This document shows, piece by piece, positions 3,175 through 28,426 of a stretch of DNA of 37,894 bases. The notes beneath the pieces are model-generated. The model was not told the DNA's origin. It saw only the letters and a program-made list of their open reading frames with translations, and did no database searches. The position numbers were made by a program, and so were the translations under genes. Position 1 is the first letter of the stretch. Each line of letters starts with the position of its first letter. This stretch comes from a virus (Duplodnaviria > Caudoviricetes): the IMG/VR virus record IMGVR_UViG_3300025128_000132, positions 1 through 37,894 of that record; one strand, written 5' to 3'.

Positions 3175-3575
3175 TGAGATCAGTTGACCAAGAAGGGTTC
3201 GCAGAGGCATGGGAGCGGAGTAAGCCTTATATGGTTACTGCGTTGAAAAAATCCGGTGACGAATACTCTGTAGATGACTTATTGACCATGCTAGAAGAGG
3301 ACCGTGCGATTTTCTATCCCGTGAAAAACGGGGCAGCTGTATTTCGGGTAGCCGTCTATCCGAAAAGACGAAGACTCCGGCTATGGCTGATTGGTGGAGA
3401 GGTAGGTGAAGGAGTCGCGAAGCTCGATGCGGTTATGCAAGCAGCGGATTTTCTAGCAGAGGAATATGGATGTGATGGCATAGAATGCACTGGGCGTAAA
3501 GTGTACAAACGGGTGCTCAAGCCTTTTGGGTACGAAGAAAACGCTGTAGTGCTGACAAAGGAATTAGGAGGCTAA
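3174..3575 (+). CDS. GNAT-like virion assembly protein (P22 gp14/T7 gp13 position)
   Basis: LWLIGG...A.EYGCDGIECTGR..YKRVLK.FGY pattern; lies between nozzle and ejection genes. Confidence 0.65.
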   Translation: MRSVDQEGFAEAWERSKPYMVTALKKSGDEYSVDDLLTMLEEDRAIFYPVKNGAAVFRVAVYPKRRRLRLWLIGGEVGEGVAKLDAVMQAADFLAEEYGCDGIECTGRKVYKRVLKPFGYEENAVVLTKELGG

Positions 3576-13832: not shown

Positions 13833-14494
13833 GGTTTCTCCTGTAGCCATTCGTTTAGCTCCTTCTTTTCTTCCTCACTGATAATGAAGTCGCTGACATA
13901 CCCGGCGGCGTCCCAATCTGGATTGCCATTGGTGAGGGTGGGCGCGGCCATCCATCCATCATTCGTTCGCCAGTAGGTGTGACCGTCCTCTTCACGTTCC
14001 CAGATATATGCGAATGTAAGAAGGTTCCGGAACGGCAAAACCTCGGAGGCATGGGGGGTTGTTTCGCTCCACATCCAGGTGCGGCCCCACAGTTTCAAGT
14101 CAACTTCTTTAGCCAACTCTAGGATCTCTTGTGGAACTGGGGAAGCTGCATGTGGTGCCTCCCAACTCCCACCTCGACTGAGCTCAATCTGGCCGTCATC
14201 CCATAGCCGCCAATCATCCACTCTGTAATTTGGTTTGTATGTAACGTCCGTAGTTTCGAGTATCACCTCCCTGCTGGGCTCTATGGAAGTGACGTTGCCG
14301 GGGTAATTGGCAGCTGCTAGGTCAGCGCACTGCAGACAGTAGTTCACTAAAATTGCTGGCTCATTGTCGAAGCTGACTAGGTATAGTCGAGTAGGGGTAA
14401 TGCAGTCTTCGCTACCTTCACAGCGGTGCCTTGGGTGCTGGCCCGGGAAGGTGTGCTTTCCATGAGCGTCCTTGAAATAAGATTGCTCTGTCAT
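13829..14494 (-). CDS. Hypothetical protein, possible N-terminal Zn site
   Basis: 221 aa, GGAGG RBS, ATGA coupling; HRCEGSEDC...YCLQC. Confidence 0.75.
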   Translation of the reverse strand: MTEQSYFKDAHGKHTFPGQHPRHRCEGSEDCITPTRLYLVSFDNEPAILVNYCLQCADLAAANYPGNVTSIEPSREVILETTDVTYKPNYRVDDWRLWDDGQIELSRGGSWEAPHAASPVPQEILELAKEVDLKLWGRTWMWSETTPHASEVLPFRNLLTFAYIWEREEDGHTYWRTNDGWMAAPTLTNGNPDWDAAGYVSDFIISEEEKKELNEWLQEKP

Positions 14495-15393
14495 GCTACC
14501 TCCTTGATTAAGGCTTCAGCGAATAGGGGCGGGATGGCGTTGCCTAGTCCCGCGATTGTGTCTGACCTGGTGGCTCCAGTAGGCCAGCCGTAGGTGTCCG
14601 GGAAGGACATAGCCCGGGCTACTTCACGAATCGTTAGTGGGCGATATGAATCGTCATTAACTACTACCCACTGATCTTGCTTGGTGATGGTTCGGATAGG
14701 CTCGTCCAAGCCTACACCCTTGTGGCCGGTAACGTGCTGGGACAGGCACTTGGCACCGTGCCGGTCCTGGGCGTCACCGATCCGCTGCTGCACGTTCGAG
14801 CTCGCGTTACCGATGGGCCTCCAGGTGCCGGCGTCCCATTGGATGTGAGAACCAAACGCAGCTTCTGGGACGGTGGGCTCTACCGGCAACTCAGCACCGA
14901 CTCGCGATGCACAGACCACCAACCTACGCCGCCGCTGCGGGACACCAAAGCGAGCACAGTTATATAGTCCGGTCGAGACTTTGTAGCCCATGAGCTCAAA
15001 GCAGTTCAGCCAATTATTGAAGAAGATCCAGCTGGCGAATGGCGGCACGTTTTCAACGATGACAGTTTCCGGGCGCGTTACTTCAGCGCACTCCACCACG
15101 GCCCAGGCTGTCGCCCTCAATGCGTCATGGTAGTGACGGCGTTTCGGCTGCGATGCGGTCGAGTGACCCTGGCAAGCAGGGGAAGCTAGGAGCAGCTCAT
15201 AGTCGGGCAGCTGGGTCCAATCAGCTTGCTGTAGATCTTGGCAGCTGTGCGCTGTGCCCGGATGATTGAGCGCATGAGCTTCGACTGCCAGCGGCCAATG
15301 GTTAGCTGCCCAAAGTACCTCGACTCCTGGGACACGCTCCGCGCCTTCAGTGAAGCCGCCCCAGCCGGCGAAAAGATCAACTGCTCTAGTCAT
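14491..15393 (-). CDS. DNA (cytosine-5) methyltransferase
   Basis: DLFAGWGG (motif I), ASPACQGHS (IV), VENV (VI), PQRRRR (VIII), RAMSFP (IX), GNAIPP (X). Confidence 0.93.
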   Translation of the reverse strand: MTRAVDLFAGWGGFTEGAERVPGVEVLWAANHWPLAVEAHALNHPGTAHSCQDLQQADWTQLPDYELLLASPACQGHSTASQPKRRHYHDALRATAWAVVECAEVTRPETVIVENVPPFASWIFFNNWLNCFELMGYKVSTGLYNCARFGVPQRRRRLVVCASRVGAELPVEPTVPEAAFGSHIQWDAGTWRPIGNASSNVQQRIGDAQDRHGAKCLSQHVTGHKGVGLDEPIRTITKQDQWVVVNDDSYRPLTIREVARAMSFPDTYGWPTGATRSDTIAGLGNAIPPLFAEALIKEVA

Positions 15394-16223
15394 GCTATCT
15401 CCAGTGAGAGTTGTGGGTCATCGTTCGTTCCTAGCACTGTGTCGTACACGCCTAAGAAGCGAGCCCAACGATCCGGCCCAAGGCGTAGTGGGTGCGAGCT
15501 ATCTGCACTGTCGCAACCGGCGTCTTTGGCGATCTGTATTTTGGTTTGTGTGCAACGTCCGTAGTGGAGCTTGAGGCTATGCTTGCGGCAGAACGCCTTC
15601 CAATCAGCAAGCGTGTTCTTCTTGAACTCATCAGTGCCACCGATGAAGATGCCATCGATCTTCCAGAGAACTGGCTCACCCATGATGCCGTCTACGCAAC
15701 CGGTGTAGCCGTCGAGCGTCGGATCGATCACCATGCCATTCTCGTCTTCGTTGAATCCCCATTCCAGGTCAGCTGGGACCATGCCGTCTTGGACTGCGAG
15801 GTAGAGAGGGAGGCTTGCATAGCCTGTGTGGGAAAGGACTGGGTCGTTGTCCCAAGCTAGTCCTTCGCTCAGATATTTGTCTAACCAGGAAAGCGATTCG
15901 AGAAGTGATTCTGGACCCTCGCCTGGTCTGTCAGGGATGACCATGAAGTCCGGTCCACGGCCTTCAGCAGCGAGCTCTGAAGCTACAGGAATGCGGCTCT
16001 CGAAATGAGCATACTCAGCTGAGAAGCTACGGCCAGGAGTCCGAGTCTCACCGTTCTCGTCTGGACGGTTCCAGGCTGGGAAGACGCCGTTGTCTAGGAA
16101 CCAGGGCTCGTTAGCAAATGGGTTGATCGGGCGCGTCACGAAGCATCGTCCGATACCCCGTGGGTATGCGTCCTCAGTTAGCTTCTTCGCTCCGTTGCTT
16201 TGCTCGCCTAAGAAGTATTTCAC
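15390..16223 (-). CDS. TGT/DpdA-like TIM-barrel protein (putative DNA base transglycosylase)
   Basis: WFLDNG.F, VIPD, LAVQDG, IFIGGT.EFK, LHYGR, CDSADSS motif series; GTG start with GGAGG RBS. Confidence 0.65.
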   Translation of the reverse strand: MKYFLGEQSNGAKKLTEDAYPRGIGRCFVTRPINPFANEPWFLDNGVFPAWNRPDENGETRTPGRSFSAEYAHFESRIPVASELAAEGRGPDFMVIPDRPGEGPESLLESLSWLDKYLSEGLAWDNDPVLSHTGYASLPLYLAVQDGMVPADLEWGFNEDENGMVIDPTLDGYTGCVDGIMGEPVLWKIDGIFIGGTDEFKKNTLADWKAFCRKHSLKLHYGRCTQTKIQIAKDAGCDSADSSHPLRLGPDRWARFLGVYDTVLGTNDDPQLSLEIA

Positions 16224-16430: not shown

Positions 16431-16679
16431 ATGGCACTCACCGTAGTTCGGGGCGGACCGTACGCCCAGGATTGGGCTTGCTTAAAATTGCATCGAGCCA
16501 TTGAGCTGGACGGTCGGTCGGTCGAACAGTATGCAGATGAGTTTTTATTTTGCAGCGCATCGAGCTGCTACAAATGGCTCCGAGGTGACAACAGGATTCC
16601 CAAGGTGTATCGGAGAATGTTGTCTCCAGCGTTAGCGGAACTCGAGAGGAATGACACCCAAAATCCCACGGGAGAATAG
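16431..16679 (+). CDS. Cro/XRE-like HTH regulator
   Basis: SVEQYADEFLFCSASSCYKWLRGDNRIP; AAGGAGG RBS before ATG 16431. Confidence 0.7.
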   Translation: MALTVVRGGPYAQDWACLKLHRAIELDGRSVEQYADEFLFCSASSCYKWLRGDNRIPKVYRRMLSPALAELERNDTQNPTGE

Positions 16680-17382
16680 AAGCATGGAATTACAGATGAG
16701 CGATGGCATCGAGAATGTCAGCAAGGCTCTGGTCGGAGCTCAGGCTGACGTTGGTAAGGCGTTAAAGAACCAGGAGAATTCTCACTTCAAATCTCAGTAC
16801 GCAGATCTGAGTGCGGTACTTGAAGTGTCGAAGCCGGCACTAGCGAAGCACGGCTTGGCACTCACCCAGTTCCCGGGTCAAGGTGAAGGAACGGTCACCA
16901 TGAGCACACTCCTGGTGCATGAGAGCGGTGAGTGGATCTTGCTTCCACCGGCATCGATTCCCCTCCAGGCGCACACAGCGCATGGATACGGGTCAGCGAT
17001 TTCGTACTTGAGGAGATACACCACGCAAGCTGCGCTTGGAATCTCAGTCGGCTTGTCGGATGATGATGACGGGAACGAGGCTACAGCCAACGCTCCAAAG
17101 AAGGCACCTAAGAAGAGAGCAGCTCCGAAGAAGGCTACCCCAGCCTTCGAGCCGAAAAAGAAAGCAGTAGTAGATCCTAAGATCTTGAAGGCCGAGCTCG
17201 CCAAGCTGAAGAAGCTCATCGACGCAGCTGAAGAGAATGGGAACGTCGAAGCCAAGGCGATTGACCTGGCTAAAAGCGTTCTCGAGAAAGACGGGGATGG
17301 CGACCCGGATCGCTCACCTCTGGAATTCACAGCTGCAGCCATCGAGTATCTGGAGTCGGCGTTGAAGGACTCACCCAAGTGA
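16651..17382 (+). CDS. erf: ERF-family single-strand annealing protein
   Basis: NSHFKSQYADL, HESGEW, GSAISYLRRY, DDDGN motifs; start may be 16684. Confidence 0.92.
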   Translation: MTPKIPRENRSMELQMSDGIENVSKALVGAQADVGKALKNQENSHFKSQYADLSAVLEVSKPALAKHGLALTQFPGQGEGTVTMSTLLVHESGEWILLPPASIPLQAHTAHGYGSAISYLRRYTTQAALGISVGLSDDDDGNEATANAPKKAPKKRAAPKKATPAFEPKKKAVVDPKILKAELAKLKKLIDAAEENGNVEAKAIDLAKSVLEKDGDGDPDRSPLEFTAAAIEYLESALKDSPK

Positions 17383-17816
17383 CCGGCAAGACGGGGATGG
17401 ACGAGCTCGACTTCCCGACAGCTCGAAAGAGGAAAGAGCAAGAGCTTGACCCGGACCAGGTCGGACTGTTTGATCGGCCACCACCACCACCTACGGGACC
17501 GTTGGCTGATTCTTACAGCCGTGAAGAAGGCAAACCCCATGCGTTCATAAAGTTCATGGAGAGCGAGGACGGTCCTGTGTTCTGGCGAGCCCTCGAAGAC
17601 GCCGCGCTGGACGCCTTCAAGCGTCAGGAAACGAGGTTCTCACCACGGGGGTTCTTAGCCCACTACCGTGATACCAAGAAGGTGCGGATCAACAACAACT
17701 TCAGTCCTTGGTTCGCGGATCAGTTGGTCGCGGAGCACCCCCAATTACTCGACCTAATCGAGCGGCGAGTGAGAAAGAAAGAAGGACCATCTATTCAACC
17801 GAAGGAGAATGGCTAA
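17379..17816 (+). CDS. Conserved hypothetical phage protein
   Basis: GTGA overlap; RINNNFSPWFA motif. Confidence 0.7.
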   Translation: MTGKTGMDELDFPTARKRKEQELDPDQVGLFDRPPPPPTGPLADSYSREEGKPHAFIKFMESEDGPVFWRALEDAALDAFKRQETRFSPRGFLAHYRDTKKVRINNNFSPWFADQLVAEHPQLLDLIERRVRKKEGPSIQPKENG

Positions 17817-18073
17817 TGCCAGCACCGAAAGAGTTTTTGAACAGAGCCAATGGATTGACCGTGTCGGTTCCACCAGAAAAGGCACAGCATTTTATCTGCT
17901 GTACACTGCGCTTGTACCCAGAGCAGCTGATCGAGTGGCTGACAAAGAAAGAGGAAGAGATGGTGAAGGTTGATGTCAAGATTTATGACGGCAAAAACCA
18001 AGAAGCTCCTCCGCTCTACCTAGAGGTCAACACCTACAAGGCACCAGGGGGGAATGATGAGCCGGCCTTCTGA
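17816..18073 (+). CDS. Small protein, possible SSB-like
   Basis: AAGGAG RBS, TAATG overlap; beta-rich with acidic-aromatic tail (NDEPAF). Confidence 0.55.
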   Translation: MPAPKEFLNRANGLTVSVPPEKAQHFICCTLRLYPEQLIEWLTKKEEEMVKVDVKIYDGKNQEAPPLYLEVNTYKAPGGNDEPAF

Positions 18074-18323
18074 GCTGGGTCCAACCGGGCTGCGCTTAGA
18101 CCATGACAAGCTGCTTGACGATTGCTCTGCGATTTTGGGACAGGTAGCGAAGGACGCTGAACGGCTCCGTGCTAAGTTGGGGAATGTGCCTTGGGATTTT
18201 GTCAACACAGCTGGGCAGGGCTACCTGGAAAAAGCTCGCATGAGTTTAGCTAAAGCCGAAGGCTGCTTACTCGAAGCTAGAAAGCAGCTTGAGCATCAGC
18301 GGGACCGTGCCCGGAACGGGTAG
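18054..18323 (+). CDS. Hypothetical helical protein
   Basis: Fills operon gap, GGGGGG RBS-like tract. Confidence 0.6.
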   Translation: MMSRPSELGPTGLRLDHDKLLDDCSAILGQVAKDAERLRAKLGNVPWDFVNTAGQGYLEKARMSLAKAEGCLLEARKQLEHQRDRARNG

Positions 18324-18696
18324 TGCTGGGCCGTACCAAATAGTCTTACCGTGGGAAGGGCTCGTCCCTGACAACCGCCGCTTCATAGGTGGGAAGGGGC
18401 ACATACTGACCCAACGCTATCGAGCGGGGAAAGAGTTCTGTTACACCCTGGCGATGACTCAGGTACGGCACCGGCCATCACACCCGGACGGTACTGTCTG
18501 GATGCACTTAGCATTCTATATGCCGGATAAGCGCAGACGAGATCCGAACAATCTCTTGAAGGGGATCGCTGACGCTCTCGAAGGGGTTGTGTACACAGAT
18601 GACAAACAGATCACGAAGCTCTCCTGGGAGAACATGGGCCTAGACCGTGACCAGCCCCGGGTAGAGATCAGCTACGGAGCTCACGGCGATGAGTAG
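18289..18696 (+). CDS. rusA: RusA-like Holliday junction resolvase
   Basis: PDKRRRDPNNLLKGIADALEGVVYTDDKQI; start uncertain. Confidence 0.9.
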   Translation: MSISGTVPGTGSAGPYQIVLPWEGLVPDNRRFIGGKGHILTQRYRAGKEFCYTLAMTQVRHRPSHPDGTVWMHLAFYMPDKRRRDPNNLLKGIADALEGVVYTDDKQITKLSWENMGLDRDQPRVEISYGAHGDE

Positions 18697-19441
18697 GAAT
18701 ACGCCAGGCTTCATTTTGCTGAGCAGGGATCTGCTCGACAAGAGCATCTTTGGCGAGCCGGATATGCTGAAGCTGTGGATCTTCATCTTGCTTAGGACCA
18801 ACTTTGGCAAGAAGAGTTACGAGTATTCCGGCGTGAAGGTAGGCCGAGGTCAGTTCCTCAGAAGCTATCGAGCGATAGCCCGGGACTGTGCCTACAGGCT
18901 TCGTAGCAAAAAGGTGCAGTGGTCGCCGGGCAAGGTCGAGCGGATGATCAAGACGTTGGTCGCTGGTGGTAGGATTCGTATCATTCCACATGACCAGCCG
19001 AACGTGGGCACACTCATCGAGGTCATCAACTACGACAAGTGGCAGAACATAGCTTCCTATGTGAAAGCTGCACCGGCTGATGCAAAGAAGAAAACGCAGG
19101 GAGCTGATCACTCGAAAGAGCTGTGGCAGATCTGGCTAAACGAGCTCAGTCCGAAAGGTCCACACCCTACGCTGACCGCCAAGCGAGCTCGCGTCTTGAA
19201 TGCGCTCTACTCAGAGCACCTGTCAAAGAATGGCGGTGACCCGCACCAGCTGTTTCGTGGAATAGTGAAAGCCCTCAAGGCCAGCGAGTTCCATAGCAGC
19301 AAAAGACAGTATCAATATCCGGAGAGTTTTCTCTCTAGCCCGGAGCGTAGAGAGTCCTGGTATTTGAAATCATTAGAGAAGTCCCATAACCCACAAGCGG
19401 CTCAAGGCGTAAGCCTCGAAGAGCTATGGAGCGACGAATGA
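18689..19441 (+). CDS. Replication initiator (lambda O/DnaD-like N-terminal wHTH)
   Basis: GFILLSR...LKLWIFILL...RGQF..S...TLIEVINYDKWQ N-domain; helical C-domain. Confidence 0.8.
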   Translation: MSRNTPGFILLSRDLLDKSIFGEPDMLKLWIFILLRTNFGKKSYEYSGVKVGRGQFLRSYRAIARDCAYRLRSKKVQWSPGKVERMIKTLVAGGRIRIIPHDQPNVGTLIEVINYDKWQNIASYVKAAPADAKKKTQGADHSKELWQIWLNELSPKGPHPTLTAKRARVLNALYSEHLSKNGGDPHQLFRGIVKALKASEFHSSKRQYQYPESFLSSPERRESWYLKSLEKSHNPQAAQGVSLEELWSDE

Positions 19442-20241
19442 GAAGTCTCAAATTGCACTACGATATGTCCGACAGCGACTACTTCGATTATCCAGCTGCA
19501 AGCAACAGCTTGTTGACGCAGCTCAAGCGGAGCCCGGCTCATTTGATGGAGGCGATCAAAAATCCTGCACCGCCTACTCCGGCTATGCGGCTTGGTTCAG
19601 CGTTCCATGTCGCTACGCTTGAGCCTGAAAAATTCGACAAGTTCTGGGCTAGAGGCAGCGAGCTCAAGGGCACCACCAAAGAAGGCAAGGCAGCGAAGAA
19701 GGAACTCTCGATGCAATTTTCTCCGGACAAGATTTTGAAGCCAGCTGACTACGATACTGTCTGCCGGATGCGAGATTCTGTACTGGGACACTCGGTAGCT
19801 GGTGAGCTCCTGGAAGGTGCAAAGACTGAGGTGGTCGCGATGTGGGAGGACGATTCGACGGGCATCTCATGCAAGGCAAAGATCGATGTGTTGCCTGGAG
19901 ATGACGGTTACCTGGCAGACCTCAAATCGACAGTTGATGCGAGTCCGGAACACATGGCAAAGGCCATTCACAATTTTGGGTATTACCGCCAGGCCGCATG
20001 GTACACCAGCCCGTTTGAAACTCGATCTGACTTCTACATGATTTGCTGCGAAAAAAAACCGCCATTCGCGGTCGCAGTCTATTGGGTGAGGGAGTCAGCT
20101 GTGCGCCAAGGGCAGATTGAGGTGCAAGCATTGCTCCAGCAGTGGGCAGATTGCATCGATCAATACGGGCTCGACGGCGAGTGGCCGGCCTATGCAGAGG
20201 TGGTACATGAGATCGATCTGCCGGTCTGGGCGCAACGATGA
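19438..20241 (+). CDS. PD-(D/E)XK exonuclease, RecE/exonuclease VIII-like (DUF3799)
   Basis: MRLGSAFH...LEP, CKAKID, DLKST, YYRQAAWY, EKKPPF motifs. Confidence 0.9.
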   Translation: MRSLKLHYDMSDSDYFDYPAASNSLLTQLKRSPAHLMEAIKNPAPPTPAMRLGSAFHVATLEPEKFDKFWARGSELKGTTKEGKAAKKELSMQFSPDKILKPADYDTVCRMRDSVLGHSVAGELLEGAKTEVVAMWEDDSTGISCKAKIDVLPGDDGYLADLKSTVDASPEHMAKAIHNFGYYRQAAWYTSPFETRSDFYMICCEKKPPFAVAVYWVRESAVRQGQIEVQALLQQWADCIDQYGLDGEWPAYAEVVHEIDLPVWAQR

Positions 20242-21781: not shown

Positions 21782-22101
21782 TGGCAGACGTTAACTATGT
21801 GATGCGGGTGTTGGCCGGGGTATCGATGCTGCCACTCGAAAGGTGTACCGATCATGCAGCTGAATGGAAGCGTGACTTGGCGCGAGCCATCGAGGAGCTG
21901 GACTCGACTCCGAGGTTGCCGGCTGACGATCCGTTACGTTTCAATAGTGAAGGTGAACTGCTCAGTAAGGAAACACTCAGTGCCAAGCTAGGAGACATCA
22001 TTGAGTCTTGGCCGTCATGGGAACAGGAGAAGAAACGCTATGCCAGGAAAAAAACTTACCCGGTCTATAGGCCGCAAACTTTCAAGGTACGGAGAGGATG
22101 A
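21781..22101 (+). CDS. Hypothetical protein
   Basis: TAATG coupling, GAAGG RBS. Confidence 0.6.
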   Translation: MADVNYVMRVLAGVSMLPLERCTDHAAEWKRDLARAIEELDSTPRLPADDPLRFNSEGELLSKETLSAKLGDIIESWPSWEQEKKRYARKKTYPVYRPQTFKVRRG

Positions 22102-22546
22102 GGTCTTTGCGCTGTACCTGAAGTACGGCTCAGTGCGTAAGCTACTGAAGTCGATGCCGAAGGAAGTGGGTACGATGTCGCACGGCGTGTTTTATGAATG
22201 GCTGAAGGAGACTGCCGAACGGTGGAGTAAGTGGCAGTCGGTCCAGGAGATACGAGCGAACCAGTGGGCTGAAGAAGCTCTCGAAATTGTAGACTCAGCT
22301 GATGAGGACAATGTCCAAGTCGCCAGGCTTAGAGCTGATATGCGGAAGTGGTTAGCTGAGAAGTTCAACAGGAACCAGTTCGGCAAGCCTGAGCTGGTAG
22401 CTGCGATTGGTATCCAAATCAGTGACGAGTTCCTGAGCTCGTTGAAGGAGGTCGAGGTGATGGCTAAAGAGCGAGCTGAGAAGGCCAAGCTGGCAGAGCT
22501 GGAGGTGGAAGCCGAAGAGGTTGAGTTCGAGGTGGTTGGTGAGTAG
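22040..22546 (+). CDS. terS: Terminase small subunit (Sf6/P22-like)
   Basis: HTH (SVRKLLK...HGVFYEWL), AEEALEIVD, ARLRADMRKWLAEK...FG; AGGAG RBS. Confidence 0.82.
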   Translation: MPGKKLTRSIGRKLSRYGEDEVFALYLKYGSVRKLLKSMPKEVGTMSHGVFYEWLKETAERWSKWQSVQEIRANQWAEEALEIVDSADEDNVQVARLRADMRKWLAEKFNRNQFGKPELVAAIGIQISDEFLSSLKEVEVMAKERAEKAKLAELEVEAEEVEFEVVGE

Positions 22547-22866
22547 TGAGTGGGACTCGATACCTGGCGTTGGCTGTGGTGCTCAGAGCTGTGAGGGATA
22601 TGCATATGCATGGAGCCAGGATGACTACCGCACCTAGTCTGAAGGAACACCTCGACGCTATTGTCTGGCTAGGATCAACTCATGCAACTGTGTGGTTTGA
22701 TGTAGCTGATGTAAACCAGTTCAACGTGCTATGGGAGAATGATTGGATGAGGTACGCAGGAGCTGCACTCGATGGCGATAAGCTCGATGCCGAAGAACGT
22801 CAGCTGCTCCAGGTTGGAGTGAAGGTGTTCAGGGACCTAAAGGCTAGGTATGACAATGGGTTCTAG
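22546..22866 (+). CDS. Hypothetical protein
   Basis: TAGTG coupling; LALAVVLRAVRD motif common in small phage proteins. Confidence 0.65.
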   Translation: MSGTRYLALAVVLRAVRDMHMHGARMTTAPSLKEHLDAIVWLGSTHATVWFDVADVNQFNVLWENDWMRYAGAALDGDKLDAEERQLLQVGVKVFRDLKARYDNGF

Positions 22867-22920
22867 AGCCAACTCCCGCCCACCAACCCCGAACACTCGC
22901 ATGTGCCCGTGAACGGGCTC

Positions 22921-23111
22921 GTAAGTTGTTGTGCCACATGGGTTTAGGTCCGTGGAACTAGAACCGTACGACCAAACCAGTTCAGGAACCCGGACTGGGT
23001 TCCGGTTTGGGTTTTATGCAAGATCGATGAATAATTGTCCACGGATAGGTAACGATAACATTGACGGTTTATGCATGAAGTCAGTAAGTCGTTGTGTTAC
23101 ATAGACTTAGG
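22921..23111. repeat. Pair of 28-bp imperfect direct repeats with dyad symmetry (IHF-like)
   Basis: GTAAGTTGTTGTGCCACATGGGTTTAGG (22921-22948) vs GTAAGTCGTTGTGTTACATAGACTTAGG (23084-23111), 22/28 identical. Confidence 0.75.
22972..23016 (+). terminator. Bulged hairpin, probable intrinsic terminator
   Basis: CCAAACC-(6-nt bulge)-GGAACCC-GGACT-GGGTTCC-GGTTTGG followed by GTTTTA. Confidence 0.5.
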
Positions 23112-23122
23112 GGTTCGGTCCA

Positions 23123-23150
23123 AGGTAACATAATGGATATTATACGAACT
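23123..23150 (-). other. dif-like XerC/XerD recombination site
   Basis: Minus strand AGTTCGTATAA-TATCCA-TTATGTTACCT; 11-6-11 layout; compare E. coli dif GGTGCGCATAA-TGTATA-TTATGTTAAAT. Confidence 0.8.
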
Positions 23151-23264
23151 TGTCATCAAAATAGGACACTTTTCAGGAAAAAAGACCCCCCCTAAAAACA
23201 AAGAGGGCCGGTGATTTTGAGTTGCTCGACACACATTATTTCCCAAAAAATTTAGGAGAAAAAA

Positions 23265-23498
23265 ATGACAGCCAACGGAACGGATGTTTTAGATCTAGCT
23301 GACAGGATACAGGGCCGAGTCCGGTTTTATCCGGTTGGTGATCCACATCGTAGACTACTCGAGACTACGTTTGCTGCTCTGCGGTCCATAGCTGACGGAG
23401 AGAGCTCGTTGACAGCTGAATCGGTCCAGGACTGGCTCCGGGACCAGGGCGTAACTCTGACTAAAACGCAGCTCAAAACGCTAGGCTTAGATGGCTAG
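23265..23498 (+). CDS. Hypothetical protein
   Basis: Strong TAGGAG RBS, 77 aa. Confidence 0.7.
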   Translation: MTANGTDVLDLADRIQGRVRFYPVGDPHRRLLETTFAALRSIADGESSLTAESVQDWLRDQGVTLTKTQLKTLGLDG

Positions 23499-23505
23499 AG
23501 TTCCG

Positions 23506-23685
23506 GACACCCCTTCAAGACACCCTTCAAGACACCCTTCAAGACACCTCGCATCGAGCGTTAAGCCTGTACTGATGCGACATCTTGGGTCTATTGCCGG
23601 GAGATCTAGACACCCATCTAGACACCTTTCAAGACAGGGGTTCCCGACAATAGTAACTAAGTAACTATTAAAGAACTAAATAATA
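23506..23685. other. Putative replication origin: 12-bp iterons plus AT-rich tract
   Basis: GACACC(C/T)(T/A)TC(A/T)A units at 23506, 23519, 23531, 23609, 23621, partial at 23543 and 23633; AT-rich 23649-23685. Confidence 0.7.
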
Positions 23686-25727: not shown

Positions 25728-27044
25728 ATGTCGCACAATCCATTTCATTTAACTAACGGACCCTGGTATGCGTCCCAAGAGGAACGCCGCCGTGCCCAGG
25801 AACTAGCGGAACGGGATCGCCAACAACGGGAACGCCGGCAGGAACTTCAGGACGCACCAAATGCGTGGCAGAGTATTCGTGGATTACTTGAGCCGGAAAC
25901 CGGGGCCGGAACAGCTGGGCTTATAGGTGCTTCTGTTCTGCCAGGCGTAGGTGAAGCTATCGATGTGGCAGACCTGGCCGCTGGTTTTCAGGATCGCGAC
26001 CTTGGTCGTATGGGTTGGGCTGCTGGTGGACTGCTACTTCCGGCTGTTGCTGGGTCTACACTGAGAAAGATCGTGCAACGGGGAGCAGACGAGCTCCCAG
26101 TGGATGAGGCGAGTCGGGTGGCAAGAAGAGATGAATGGGTCGAGCCAAGTGCGGTTAAGGACCAAGTGTATCACGGGACTACCCATGTGGTTGATGAGTT
26201 CGATCCCAAGATGGGACACGCCGAAAGCCATCATGGTCGGTCGCTGTATTTCAGCACATCTCCGGATGATGTTGCCCGGAATTATGCCAGGGCCGATGGC
26301 CCAGACTTAACAAGACATTACGAATCAAAGGTGGATGAGATAATGGGCCGCGATGATTTGAGTTACGACAATCCGGCGCATAAAGCTCAAGCAGCAGCGG
26401 AAGCCGAAGCTCTCGTTCTTGGGCCACATCAAGGCGCGACAATTCCAGCTCACTTGCGACTGAAAAATCCAGTGGACACCCGGGAAGGTGGCACGTTCTT
26501 CGAGTGGAACGAGGAATACCTTGAAGATTTGGATGAATGGACTGAGCCTGAAGGATCATTAGTAGACCTACTTGACTCTCTAGATAATGTTTCATGGAAG
26601 CTGGATATGGACCCTGGTGATTTCAAGCAGATGGTGGTAGAACACGCGATAGATGAAGGTGGAATCTCCGCGAAAGATTTTGAAAGACTTATGCGAGGCA
26701 ACAGCGCGGCTGATCCTATGTTCGATTTCTATGATGCGTGGGATGATGTCCATGATACGCCGCTTGGAGGCCCAGGAGAGTTGCTGCGCCGTATATATAT
26801 GGACGCTGGCTATGATGGCACCATCGTGGATGCAATGGATCAGTTCGGCAACCACGGGTTTGGCATGAAAGGGGTGGAGGACGCAATCCATTATGCAGTG
26901 TTTGAACCGAAGAATATCCGGTCGCCGTTTGCTCTATTCGATCCGTCACAAATAGAAAGTGGACATCTCAGTGCTGGCTTGGCTGGGTTGCTGGGCACTG
27001 GCATGGTTCGAGCCCAGAATAGAGAAAATTATGTAGAGCGATGA
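25728..27044 (+). CDS. Effector-like protein: pre-toxin-TG-like module plus ADP-ribosyltransferase-like domain (ART-PolyVal type)
   Basis: VYHGT...FD, LYFSTS...A..YA, IPAHLRLKNP, AGYDG, YAVFEPKNIRSPFALFDP. Confidence 0.75.
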   Translation: MSHNPFHLTNGPWYASQEERRRAQELAERDRQQRERRQELQDAPNAWQSIRGLLEPETGAGTAGLIGASVLPGVGEAIDVADLAAGFQDRDLGRMGWAAGGLLLPAVAGSTLRKIVQRGADELPVDEASRVARRDEWVEPSAVKDQVYHGTTHVVDEFDPKMGHAESHHGRSLYFSTSPDDVARNYARADGPDLTRHYESKVDEIMGRDDLSYDNPAHKAQAAAEAEALVLGPHQGATIPAHLRLKNPVDTREGGTFFEWNEEYLEDLDEWTEPEGSLVDLLDSLDNVSWKLDMDPGDFKQMVVEHAIDEGGISAKDFERLMRGNSAADPMFDFYDAWDDVHDTPLGGPGELLRRIYMDAGYDGTIVDAMDQFGNHGFGMKGVEDAIHYAVFEPKNIRSPFALFDPSQIESGHLSAGLAGLLGTGMVRAQNRENYVER

Positions 27045-28426
27045 GCTACACTGACCAACTGATCTTGATGCGGGAAGATCCCGTATTGTTCGTGGAAGGT
27101 ATCCTGAAAGCAGAGCCAGATCCGTGGCAAGCCGATGTGATGACGGCGGTAGCTGCCGGAGCTCGCGGTGTCAGCATCCGCTCAGGTCACGGAGTCGGGA
27201 AGACGAGCTGCTTATCTTGGCTGGCTCTTTGGTGGATTTCCACACATTACCATGCGAAGGTGGTAATGACCGCACCAACCTCAGCCCAGCTGCAAGATGC
27301 TTTGCTGCCCGAAACAAAAGCATGGCTCAAACAAGCACCAGCTGGCTACCGAGATCTGTTCAACGTCAAAGCGGATCGCATCGAGCTCATCTCAGACGCT
27401 GAACGCAATTTCATATCTGCGAAGACATCGAGGGCTGAACAGCCAGATGCGCTTCAGGGCGTTCACGCTGACAGCGTTTTATTGATATGCGACGAAGCCA
27501 GCGGAGTACCAGAACAAGTTTACGAGTCTGCCGGTGGATCAATGTCGGCGCATCGAGCGTCTATGGTTTTGGCCGGTAACCCGGTCAGGAGCTCTGGCTA
27601 CTTCTACGACACATTCCACAAACTGAGCGAGAGTTGGAAGACGTTCCATGTGTCCTGTGAAGACACCGCCCGGGTATCTGAAGATTATATCGAAGAGTGC
27701 CGGGTACGTTACGGTGAAGAAAGCAACGTCTATCGAGTGCGGGTGCTGGGTGAGTTCCCCCGGGGCGACGATGATACGGTAATCGCCCAGGAGCTCATCA
27801 CCGAAGCGATCAGCCGTGACGTTGAGCCTACGCCATTTGGTCCTACGGTATGGGGCGTGGATGTAGCACGGTTTGGGTCCGATTCATCAGCACTTTGTAA
27901 GCGAAAAGGAAATGCGATCACTGAGCCGATCCGGCTGTGGCGTAACCTCGACACCATGCAGCTGACCGGGGCAGTGAAAGCTGAATACGATTCGACCGAC
28001 GAGAAACCGATGGAAATTTTTGTTGATTCTATCGGATTAGGTGCAGGAGTGGTTGACCGGCTGCGTGAGCTGGGGCTGCCGGCTTACGGGATCAATGTCG
28101 CTGAAAGTCCTGCGCTGGGCACTCAATACATGAACCTTCGCTCCGAGCTCTGGTATAAGGCTAAGGCTTGGTTGGAAGGTCGAGATGTTCGACTTCCTCG
28201 AGATCCGACTTTGAAGGCCGAGCTCGCTACCGTGCGATATAGTTATACGTCGAGTGGGCGAGTGAAGATTGAATCGAAGGGCGAGCTCAAGAAGCGGGGC
28301 GTGGCATCACCAGACTCAGCTGACGCATTCGTATTGACCTTTGCCAGTGACGCAGGAACCGCGATTGGTGGTAGGAGCTCGAGACACACAGGCAAGCTCA
28401 AGCGGAATTTAGCAGGAGTAATTTAG
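27041..28426 (+). CDS. terL: Terminase large subunit
   Basis: PDPWQ, RSGHGVGKT Walker A, ICDEASG Walker B, GVDVARFGSD, SPDSADA nuclease motifs. Confidence 0.96.
   Translation: MSYTDQLILMREDPVLFVEGILKAEPDPWQADVMTAVAAGARGVSIRSGHGVGKTSCLSWLALWWISTHYHAKVVMTAPTSAQLQDALLPETKAWLKQAPAGYRDLFNVKADRIELISDAERNFISAKTSRAEQPDALQGVHADSVLLICDEASGVPEQVYESAGGSMSAHRASMVLAGNPVRSSGYFYDTFHKLSESWKTFHVSCEDTARVSEDYIEECRVRYGEESNVYRVRVLGEFPRGDDDTVIAQELITEAISRDVEPTPFGPTVWGVDVARFGSDSSALCKRKGNAITEPIRLWRNLDTMQLTGAVKAEYDSTDEKPMEIFVDSIGLGAGVVDRLRELGLPAYGINVAESPALGTQYMNLRSELWYKAKAWLEGRDVRLPRDPTLKAELATVRYSYTSSGRVKIESKGELKKRGVASPDSADAFVLTFASDAGTAIGGRSSRHTGKLKRNLAGVI

What the first reader, a model, noticed from the sequence alone, without database searches (positions are those of the whole stretch)
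23123..23150. dif-like XerCD site in a tailed phage that encodes no integrase
Seen: AGTTCGTATAA-TATCCA-TTATGTTACCT (minus strand), intergenic, exact 11-6-11 geometry; XerD arm 9/11 and XerC arm 8/11 identical to E. coli dif. No tyrosine or serine recombinase ORF recognised in this complete genome. Known: Xer-exploiting elements are mainly filamentous phages (CTX, VGJ), TLC, genomic islands and plasmids (cer, psi, pdif). Inference: this podovirus uses host XerCD either to integrate at chromosomal dif or to resolve circular multimers; the site could also identify the host. The neighbouring 77-aa gene (23265) is a candidate activator by analogy to TLC XafT, which is speculative.
Basis: partly seen in the sequence, partly recalled or inferred. 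Interest (0 to 1): 0.85.

Follow-up and report, generated by a model that had tools for sequence, protein, structure and literature searches.

The report
Host dif copy at phage end
This marine phage, in which no recombinase gene was detected, carries between its two DNA-packaging genes a copy of the site bacteria use to untangle their chromosomes, so it likely borrows the host's XerC/XerD enzymes to join its own genome ends into a circle, as cultured E. coli phages with such a site in their end repeats may also do.

Summary
The 28-mer is real and no integrase or serine resolvase was detected. Both 11-bp arms are identical to the single-copy chromosomal dif of two marine Gemmatimonadales genomes (likely host); only the spacer differs (TATCCA vs TATATA). 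The site is conserved in relatives down to 78% TerL identity, always between terS and terL, 35 bp before a poly-C tract. In the cultured relative phiM5 such a tract lies 34 bp inside the end of the annotated terminal repeat. Cultured phages of three unrelated groups (Wifcevirus, Vequintavirus, RpT1) carry dif-like sites in their terminal repeats or at both record ends. No prophage or phage-host junction was found. Best reading (0.6): host XerCD recombines the two terminal copies to circularise or resolve phage DNA, like P1 loxP but with a host enzyme. Integration at dif remains possible (0.15). The 77-aa gene is not coupled to the site. This phage's ends are inferred, not mapped, and 4 of 5 near-complete TerL relatives lack the site. 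Ten literature searches found no description. The scan has reported the same arrangement on other DNA. It is testable in E. coli K-12.

The parts
23123..23150 (-). dif-like Xer site: XerC-type arm 23150-23140, 6-bp spacer 23139-23134, XerD-type arm 23133-23123
   Evidence: arms 22/22 identical to the chromosomal site in L242 and L320
23085..23109 (.). IHF-like inverted motif ending 13 bp from the XerD-type arm (IHF consensus recalled; function not tested)
   Evidence: conserved in the clade alignment; same 13-bp offset in L063 and in Wifcevirus records, but in only 6 of 78 terminase-linked loci overall
22922..22946 (.). second IHF-like motif of the same conserved non-coding module
23186..23192 (+). 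poly-C tract, the only run of 7 or more C or G in the window; inferred marker of the right end of the terminal repeat (predicted end near 23226)
   Evidence: in phiM5 the annotated 357-bp terminal repeat ends 34 bp after such a tract. It also forms part of a minus-strand terminator-like hairpin
22001..22546 (+). terminase small subunit, Sf6-like
   Evidence: PF20901 E 5.5e-13, phrog_1482
27041..28426 (+). terminase large subunit, 51% identical to that of phiM5
23265..23498 (+). 77-aa ORF of unknown family; neighbour of the site but not coupled to it
16651..20241 (+). phage homologous-recombination genes (ERF annealing protein, RusA resolvase, exonuclease VIII-like); alternative route to circularisation, and RusA could resolve a XerC-made junction

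Best explanation
The 28-bp site carries the host's XerC and XerD binding arms with a changed spacer and likely lies inside the terminal repeat of the packaged genome, so host XerCD would recombine the two identical end copies and close the incoming linear DNA into a circle (or resolve or join phage multimers) without a phage recombinase. Shown: the site, its conservation, arm identity with a single-copy chromosomal dif, its place between terS and terL before the poly-C tract, no detected recombinase, and dif-like sites in the terminal repeats of cultured phages. Inferred: the host; that this phage has a terminal repeat ending near 23226 that includes the site; that XerCD binds and recombines it; activation by host FtsK, or a XerC-first junction finished by replication or phage RusA; and that the C at spacer position 5 hinders a XerD-first crossover with the chromosome.
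For: (1) Arms 22/22 identical to the site in Gemmatimonadales genomes UBA7835 (L242) and UBA2975 (L320), 26/28 overall. That site type is single-copy in 61 of the 63 positive genomes among 151 of the family and lies 0.46-0.52 of the replicon from dnaA in 4 of 5 genomes tested. G001 encodes XerD (above the NCBIfam cut-off), a XerC-like protein (best match, below cut-off) and an FtsK gamma domain. (2) Of 80 TerL-relative loci, 7 include a TerS hit; 6 of the 7 have a strong site in the same place and orientation and the seventh (L012) a degenerate one. (3) Spacer position 5 is C in 8 of 9 distinct sites from 13 related phage loci but T in 46 of 47 host sites. (4) 13 of 43 clusters of site-bearing viral loci have a terminase gene within about 1.3 kb, in at least three terminase families; 71 of 120 distinct loci have a C or G run of 6 or more within 150 bp, against 72 of 2104 background windows. 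(5) phiM5 (TerL 51%) has an annotated 357-bp terminal repeat just upstream of terL ending 34 bp after the poly-C tract; phage C72C1 has terS, IHF-like motif, dif-like site, poly-C, terL in the same order. (6) Cultured phages: Mansfield, site at 3309-3336 inside a 3,673-bp PhageTerm-predicted repeat that also holds an Sf6-like terS; WFH, both copies of a 3,701-bp repeat; Gotham, site at 170-197 of a 459-bp repeat; RpT1, identical sites near both record ends. (7) PF00589 in only 2 of 50 viral records searched, 36 or so of them site-bearing.
Against: This phage's termini were not mapped; only assembled contigs were available. The site is not needed across the wider family: of 5 TerL relatives at least 90% complete, 1 has a true site, 1 only a 3-mismatch hit and 3 none; phiM5, the fetched 15 kb of HTVC023P and three Manatee Spring terL regions lack it. 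The phage encodes ERF, an exonuclease and RusA, which could close a terminal repeat by homology. No XerD activator was recognised (no FtsK-gamma in G000) and no E. coli-type KOPS lies near the site. Spacer positions 1-2 match the host in 8 of 9 related sites, which is also what XerC-first integration would need. In Seurat and VogelGryff the site is not beside an annotated terminase or repeat. Nine of the 13 terminase-linked clusters share this phage's terminase family, so they are not independent. The host call rests on the arms and similar GC only; no other DNA match to 201 family genomes beyond the site and one 41-bp hit, and the genome scan covered 29 of 64 parts.
Confidence: 0.6

Rival explanations
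1. Non-recombinational use: XerC and XerD bind the site near the genome ends as a protein cap or landmark (end protection, stopping or recruiting FtsK or topoisomerase IV, or helping terminase define the end) without a productive crossover.
For: Arms are kept host-perfect while the spacer drifts within the clade; the site sits in a conserved non-coding module with IHF-like motifs and the poly-C tract; the phage has its own homologous-recombination genes.
Against: The full two-arm, 6-bp geometry is kept in all variants, and two identical copies in direct repeat are a natural recombination substrate; relatives package DNA with the poly-C tract but without the site.
Confidence: 0.17
2. The phage is a tailed IMEX: the site is an attP that integrates at host dif by a XerC-first exchange finished by replication, as VGJ-phi does, with the position-5 mismatch preventing excision.
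For: Arms identical to host dif; spacer positions 1-2 equal the host's in 8 of 9 variants with the mismatch on the XerD side, the pattern described for CTX/VGJ (passages; introduction). Three candidate-host contigs end 1-10 bases from dif (L241, L242, L320), as variable insertions would cause. An earlier unchecked scan note (e1-7266747) reports another tailed phage inserted at dif.
Against: No capsid homologue in 301 genomes of the order (incomplete genomes, no positive control); 8 metagenome hits were 6 phage-flanked and 2 host-flanked, none hybrid; no host dif flank over 60 nt in 256 viral loci; no CI-type repressor among annotated ORFs; insertion here would separate terS from terL; the same layout occurs in phages regarded as virulent (recalled for rV5-like and Wifcevirus).
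Confidence: 0.15
3. The phage persists as a circular plasmid-like prophage and uses the site like cer, psi or pdif to resolve dimers, unrelated to genome ends.
For: Spacer unlike host dif, as in plasmid Xer sites (recalled); theta-type replication genes.
Against: No partition genes among annotated ORFs; does not explain the fixed place beside terS and the poly-C tract or in terminal repeats.
Confidence: 0.06
4. Chance match or a non-functional relic of host DNA.
For: 17/22 to recalled E. coli arms arises in about 1.5% of simulated genomes; patchy presence; L012 copy is degenerate.
Against: 22/22 to a host dif; conservation far above the flanks; recurrence at equivalent places in unrelated phages with arms that differ by host group.
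Confidence: 0.02

Closest known systems
Chromosomal dif / XerC-XerD / FtsK dimer resolution (PMC9226527, abstract and introduction read; PMC3025954, passages)
   Same: 11-6-11 layout; both arms identical to a Gemmatimonadales chromosomal site that is single-copy and opposite dnaA
   Different: On a phage; spacer differs at positions 4-5; no sign of FtsK-orienting motifs of the E. coli type; sits beside packaging genes
P1 Cre-loxP circularisation of terminally redundant DNA (mechanism recalled; PMC8026635 passages list P1 only as headful with Cre)
   Same: A tyrosine-recombinase site placed near the packaging start so that it can occur at both ends
   Different: No phage recombinase detected; the site is a host XerCD target; fixed terminal repeat inferred rather than headful redundancy
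IMEXs: CTX-phi, VGJ-phi, TLC-phi, dif-type double jelly-roll prophages (bioRxiv 10.64898/2026.06.12.731946 and PMC12715192, passages)
   Same: dif-like site, no integrase, spacer partly unlike host dif
   Different: Tailed 38-kb podovirus; canonical 6-bp spacer and perfect arms; no XafT/XafV-like factor recognised; no integrated copy found
Plasmid Xer sites cer, psi, pdif (ColE1 mentioned in PMC9226527 introduction; otherwise recalled)
   Same: Host XerCD acting on the element's own identical copies; spacer unlike chromosomal dif
   Different: In a virion-packaged linear genome; possible accessory motifs lie on the XerD side and are IHF-like
Sinorhizobium phage phiM5 (GenBank MF074189 annotation; its paper was not held)
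   Same: TerL 51%, portal 40%, capsid 45% identity; poly-C tract upstream of terL
   Different: phiM5 has its own integrase and no dif-like site

Membership tests
dif-like XerC/XerD site | Two 11-bp arms around a 6-bp spacer matching a host dif | tested here: met
   22/22 arm identity, 26/28 overall to L242 and L320
dif-like XerC/XerD site | The matching host site is a true dif (single copy, terminus, xerC/xerD/ftsK present) | tested here: met
   single copy in 61 of 63 positive genomes; opposite dnaA in 4 of 5 family genomes; XerD, XerC-like and FtsK-gamma in G001. Terminus position not testable in the fragmented G001 and G002 themselves
dif-like XerC/XerD site | Bound and recombined by XerC and XerD | not testable with these tools
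   needs EMSA or a recombination assay
IMEX | No element-encoded integrase | tested here: met
IMEX | Found integrated at host dif (attL/attR junctions) | tested here: inconclusive
   none in 301 genomes, 8 metagenome hits or 256 viral loci; host genomes are fragmented and some break at dif
IMEX (TLC/VGJ type) | Xer activation factor gene beside attP | tested here: not met
   77-aa gene uncoupled from the site, no Pfam/PHROG/NCBIfam/fold match; the model was of low confidence (pLDDT 65) and XafT was not compared directly
P1 Cre-loxP | Phage-encoded Cre-type recombinase | tested here: not met
P1 Cre-loxP (works like) | Site present at both ends of the packaged DNA | tested here: inconclusive
   inferred here from phiM5 geometry; seen in records of Mansfield, WFH, Gotham, RpT1
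Plasmid cer/psi-type resolution site | Plasmid lifestyle and accessory-protein sites next to the XerC arm | tested here: inconclusive
   no partition genes annotated; IHF-like motifs on the XerD side only; PepA/ArgR sites not tested

The most novel reading that the evidence does not exclude
Tailed phages of many unrelated lineages, including well-studied coliphages (rV5-like, Wifcevirus), have independently placed a host-matched dif site in their terminal repeats and use the host XerCD machinery to circularise or concatemerise their genomes during lytic growth: a general host-recombinase step in tailed-phage DNA metabolism, and a 28-bp host-prediction tag that here names a phage clade of uncultured marine Gemmatimonadota.
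Probability: 0.5. Interest if true: 0.88.

Novelty: new variant of a known kind. Interest (0 to 1): 0.76.

Why it matters
How phages with direct terminal repeats close or join their DNA after injection is assumed rather than shown for most groups (own knowledge). A host-XerCD route would extend Xer exploitation from integrating filamentous and tailless phages and plasmids to the genome ends of tailed phages. Cultured E. coli K-12 phages carry the same arrangement, so it can be tested with xer mutants at once. The arms also give a host lead for uncultured phages, here marine Gemmatimonadota.

Tried and rejected
Prophage search: capsid protein against 301 genomes of the order, 0 matches; 14.7 kb of phage DNA against 201 family genomes gave 4 short hits, 3 of them the dif site itself. 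Extra dif-like sites in G319 and G194 were fetched: no phage-protein hits; the two G319 copies are one duplicated 4.6-kb assembly stretch. Contig depth: in 6 of 8 runs laid, contigs over about 22850-23250 had 2-4 times the depth of their neighbours (X4 34 vs 10.9; X7 56.5 vs 14.7 and 12.4; X14 41.8 vs 19; X17 25.4 vs 10.6 and 11.6; X16 32.8 vs 13 and 12.2; X15 14.3 vs 5.1 and 6.5, this contig ending before the site); X1 and X3 had one long contig across it. This fits a terminal repeat, but contig depth is no copy number and other phages share this module (loose ends at 22920-23173), so it is not counted as evidence. No loose end was traced to host DNA. The 77-aa protein: 11 close and 20 wider homologues, none named; no Atlas hit; no fold match at E<=0.001. 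E. coli-type KOPS: none within 4 kb of the site. A fixed IHF-like motif at 13 bp is not general (6 of 78 terminase-linked loci). The window's own 34-nt site found no convincing cultured phage, nor did the 411-nt module. HTVC023P, nearest cultured match to one site-bearing cluster, lacks the site in the 15 kb fetched. The 166-nt end overlap of the record was rejected as the biological terminal repeat. Literature: searches returned no paper describing dif-like sites at tailed-phage ends (judged from listings and abstract starts); the Mansfield announcement has no occurrence of 'dif' or 'Xer'. Subscription journals and bioRxiv supplements were not searchable, and no supplements were read.

Full report
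Observation. The minus strand of 23123-23150 reads AGTTCGTATAA TATCCA TTATGTTACCT, in a 398-bp intergenic stretch. Against recalled E. coli arms it scores 17 of 22, next best 14; 3 of 200 simulated genomes reach 17, so that count alone is suggestive only. A matrix from 88 chromosomal sites gives 35.2 bits against a null maximum of 18.9 in 300 simulations, with the caveat that the training sites were fetched by patterns drawn from this site. The genome is a complete podovirus-like phage with SU10-type portal, capsid and adaptor, Sf6-like TerS, TerL, and ERF, RusA, exonuclease VIII-like and DnaB genes. No tyrosine or serine recombinase was detected. The 166-nt end overlap falls inside the tail-fibre frame and is an assembly overlap.

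Conservation. Of 80 loci fetched with TerL (best 80 of 131), most are too short upstream. Seven include a TerS hit; six have a strong site after terS in the same orientation, at TerL identities from 100% to 78%, and L012 has a degenerate one in the same place; L009 has the site 19 bp from its contig start. Identity to the window across 11-12 related loci is 0.83-0.93 in the site and 0.45-0.54 in the flanks. The site is patchy in the wider family: of 5 records at least 90% complete, one has a true site. Those lacking it also lack PF00589, so site and integrase are not simple alternatives.

Host. A scan of species genomes (120 hits from 29 of 64 parts) found both arms identical only in two Gemmatimonadales genomes, UBA7835 and UBA2975, with spacer TATATA. 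In that family 63 of 151 genomes have such a site, 61 of them once; in 4 of 5 genomes it lies 0.46-0.52 of the replicon from dnaA; in the genus 17 of 25 have one. G001 encodes XerD, a XerC-like protein and FtsK-gamma. GC is 51-55% at these host loci and 53% in the phage. The host is an inference from these matches. Spacer position 5 is C in 8 of 9 distinct phage sites and T in 46 of 47 host sites; positions 1-2 match the host in 8 of 9.

Integration was looked for and not found. No capsid homologue in 301 genomes of the order. The 28-mer with either spacer gave 8 metagenome contigs: 6 with phage genes and the phage spacer (one, L360, is identical to the window), 2 with host flanks and the host spacer, one of them continuous across an empty dif. 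None of 256 viral loci has host dif flanks. Against this, host genomes are fragmentary and three break within 10 bases of dif.

Position. Thirteen clusters have a terminase gene within about 1.3 kb, mostly with the site between terS and terL; nine of them share this phage's terminase family and four use others. Seven clusters have filamentous- or microvirus hallmark hits, and the rest were not assigned. A C or G run of 6 or more lies within 150 bp in 71 of 120 loci against 3.4% of background windows. In the window the only such run of 7 starts 35 bp after the site. phiM5, the nearest named isolate by TerL (51%), has an annotated 357-bp terminal repeat directly upstream of terL that ends 34 bp after a like tract; phiM5 has no dif-like site and has its own integrase. 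By that geometry this phage's right end would lie near 23226, with the site inside the repeat. This is inferred. Phage C72C1 shows terS, IHF-like motif, dif-like site, poly-C and terL in the same order.

Cultured parallels. Searching 50,697 phage records with two 30-nt site variants found intergenic dif-like sites in Wifcevirus, Vequintavirus, Seunavirus, Seuratvirus, Listeria P70-like phages and RpT1, among many weak partial hits. In four records examined that show their ends, the site is in the repeat: Mansfield (3309-3336 of a 3,673-bp PhageTerm prediction, with an Sf6-like terS), WFH (both copies of 3,701 bp), Gotham (170-197 of 459 bp, arms 22/22 to the recalled E. coli arms) and RpT1 (identical copies near both ends; repeat not annotated). 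For rV5, 4MG, P70, Bas100, Seurat and VogelGryff the fetched regions show no repeat annotation, and in the two Seuratviruses no terminase is annotated nearby. All spacers differ from the recalled E. coli spacer where the host is E. coli.

The 77-aa gene. Homologues (36-51% identity) occur in L022, L023, L027, L035-L037, L046, L048, L052 and L053 with no site in the fetched DNA, and the site occurs without a homologue in L009, L010, L039, L063, L104, L409 and L411. No family, Atlas or fold match. It is not supported as an activator.

Mechanism. Most likely the virion DNA carries the site at both ends in direct repeat. Host XerC and XerD would pair the two identical copies and a crossover would give a circle; the same reaction can resolve or join multimers. 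Identical copies need no particular spacer, which explains its drift, and the position-5 change would hinder the XerD-first route with the chromosome. XerD activation is unexplained: FtsK, or a XerC-first junction finished by replication as described for CTX-phi and ColE1 (PMC9226527 introduction) or by the phage's RusA. ERF and the exonuclease offer a second route, which may be why many relatives do without the site. Rivals are binding without recombination (0.17), VGJ-type integration (0.15; rules from passages of bioRxiv 10.64898/2026.06.12.731946), plasmid-type dimer resolution (0.06) and chance (0.02).

Novelty. Six searches aimed at this question returned papers on filamentous, micro- and double jelly-roll phages and on plasmid prophages with their own recombinases (PMC12715192 and PMC8026635, passages), none on host dif sites at tailed-phage ends; the Mansfield announcement does not mention them. 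Subscription journals and supplements were not seen. The scan's earlier unchecked notes report the same arrangement in other phages, including an rV5-like terminal repeat; they are not independent evidence. Verdict: real, conserved, host-matched Xer site; a new variant of Xer exploitation; mechanism inferred; interest 0.76.

Noticed in passing
L420:3309-3336, L421:3337-3364, L422:6920-6947, L424:6202-6229 (Wifcevirus Mansfield, WFH, Bas100): dif-like site in the long terminal repeat of these coliphages, followed after 13 bp by the same IHF-like motif as in the window.
   Followed up: partly
L425:5000-5027, L428:170-197, L427:4000-4027 (rV5, Gotham, 4MG): dif-like sites with near-perfect E. coli-type arms and altered spacers; the surrounding 251 nt match 115 phage records.
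   Followed up: partly
L423:7002-7029, L462:3002-3029 (VogelGryff, Seurat); L426:5002-5029 (Listeria phage P70): Intergenic dif-like sites in Seuratviruses and P70-like phages; genome ends not checked.
   Followed up: no
L121, L146, L152 and cluster 2 (about 59-kb, 32% GC phages related to HTVC023P): Thirteen loci carry a dif-like site about 200 bp upstream of terL with spacers all starting with C, while HTVC023P itself lacks it there.
   Followed up: partly
L292 and clusters 0, 1, 5: Arms of several marine phage clusters match the site in a 'Candidatus Salinivivens marinus' genome, a possible host lead.
   Followed up: no
L465:9973-10000 (G319:C8): A second dif-like site about 1.1 Mb from the main dif, beside transposase-like genes; possibly the border of an Xer-integrated island.
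   Followed up: partly
window 25728-27044: Variable 438-aa gene before terL with an ART-PolyVal (ADP-ribosyltransferase) domain hit; this and the upstream 531-aa gene are swapped among close strains.
   Followed up: no
window 23503-23558 and 23605-23636: 12-bp tandem repeats downstream of the 77-aa gene, possibly iterons or packaging-related sites.
   Followed up: no
window 14491-16223 (minus): C5 DNA methyltransferase next to a 277-aa unknown gene (phrog_15826); the pair recurs in L372 and L391.
   Followed up: no
L083 and L085 (one 36.9-kb record): The record's terminal duplication includes the dif-like site, with terL at one end and a TerS-sized gene at the other.
   Followed up: no
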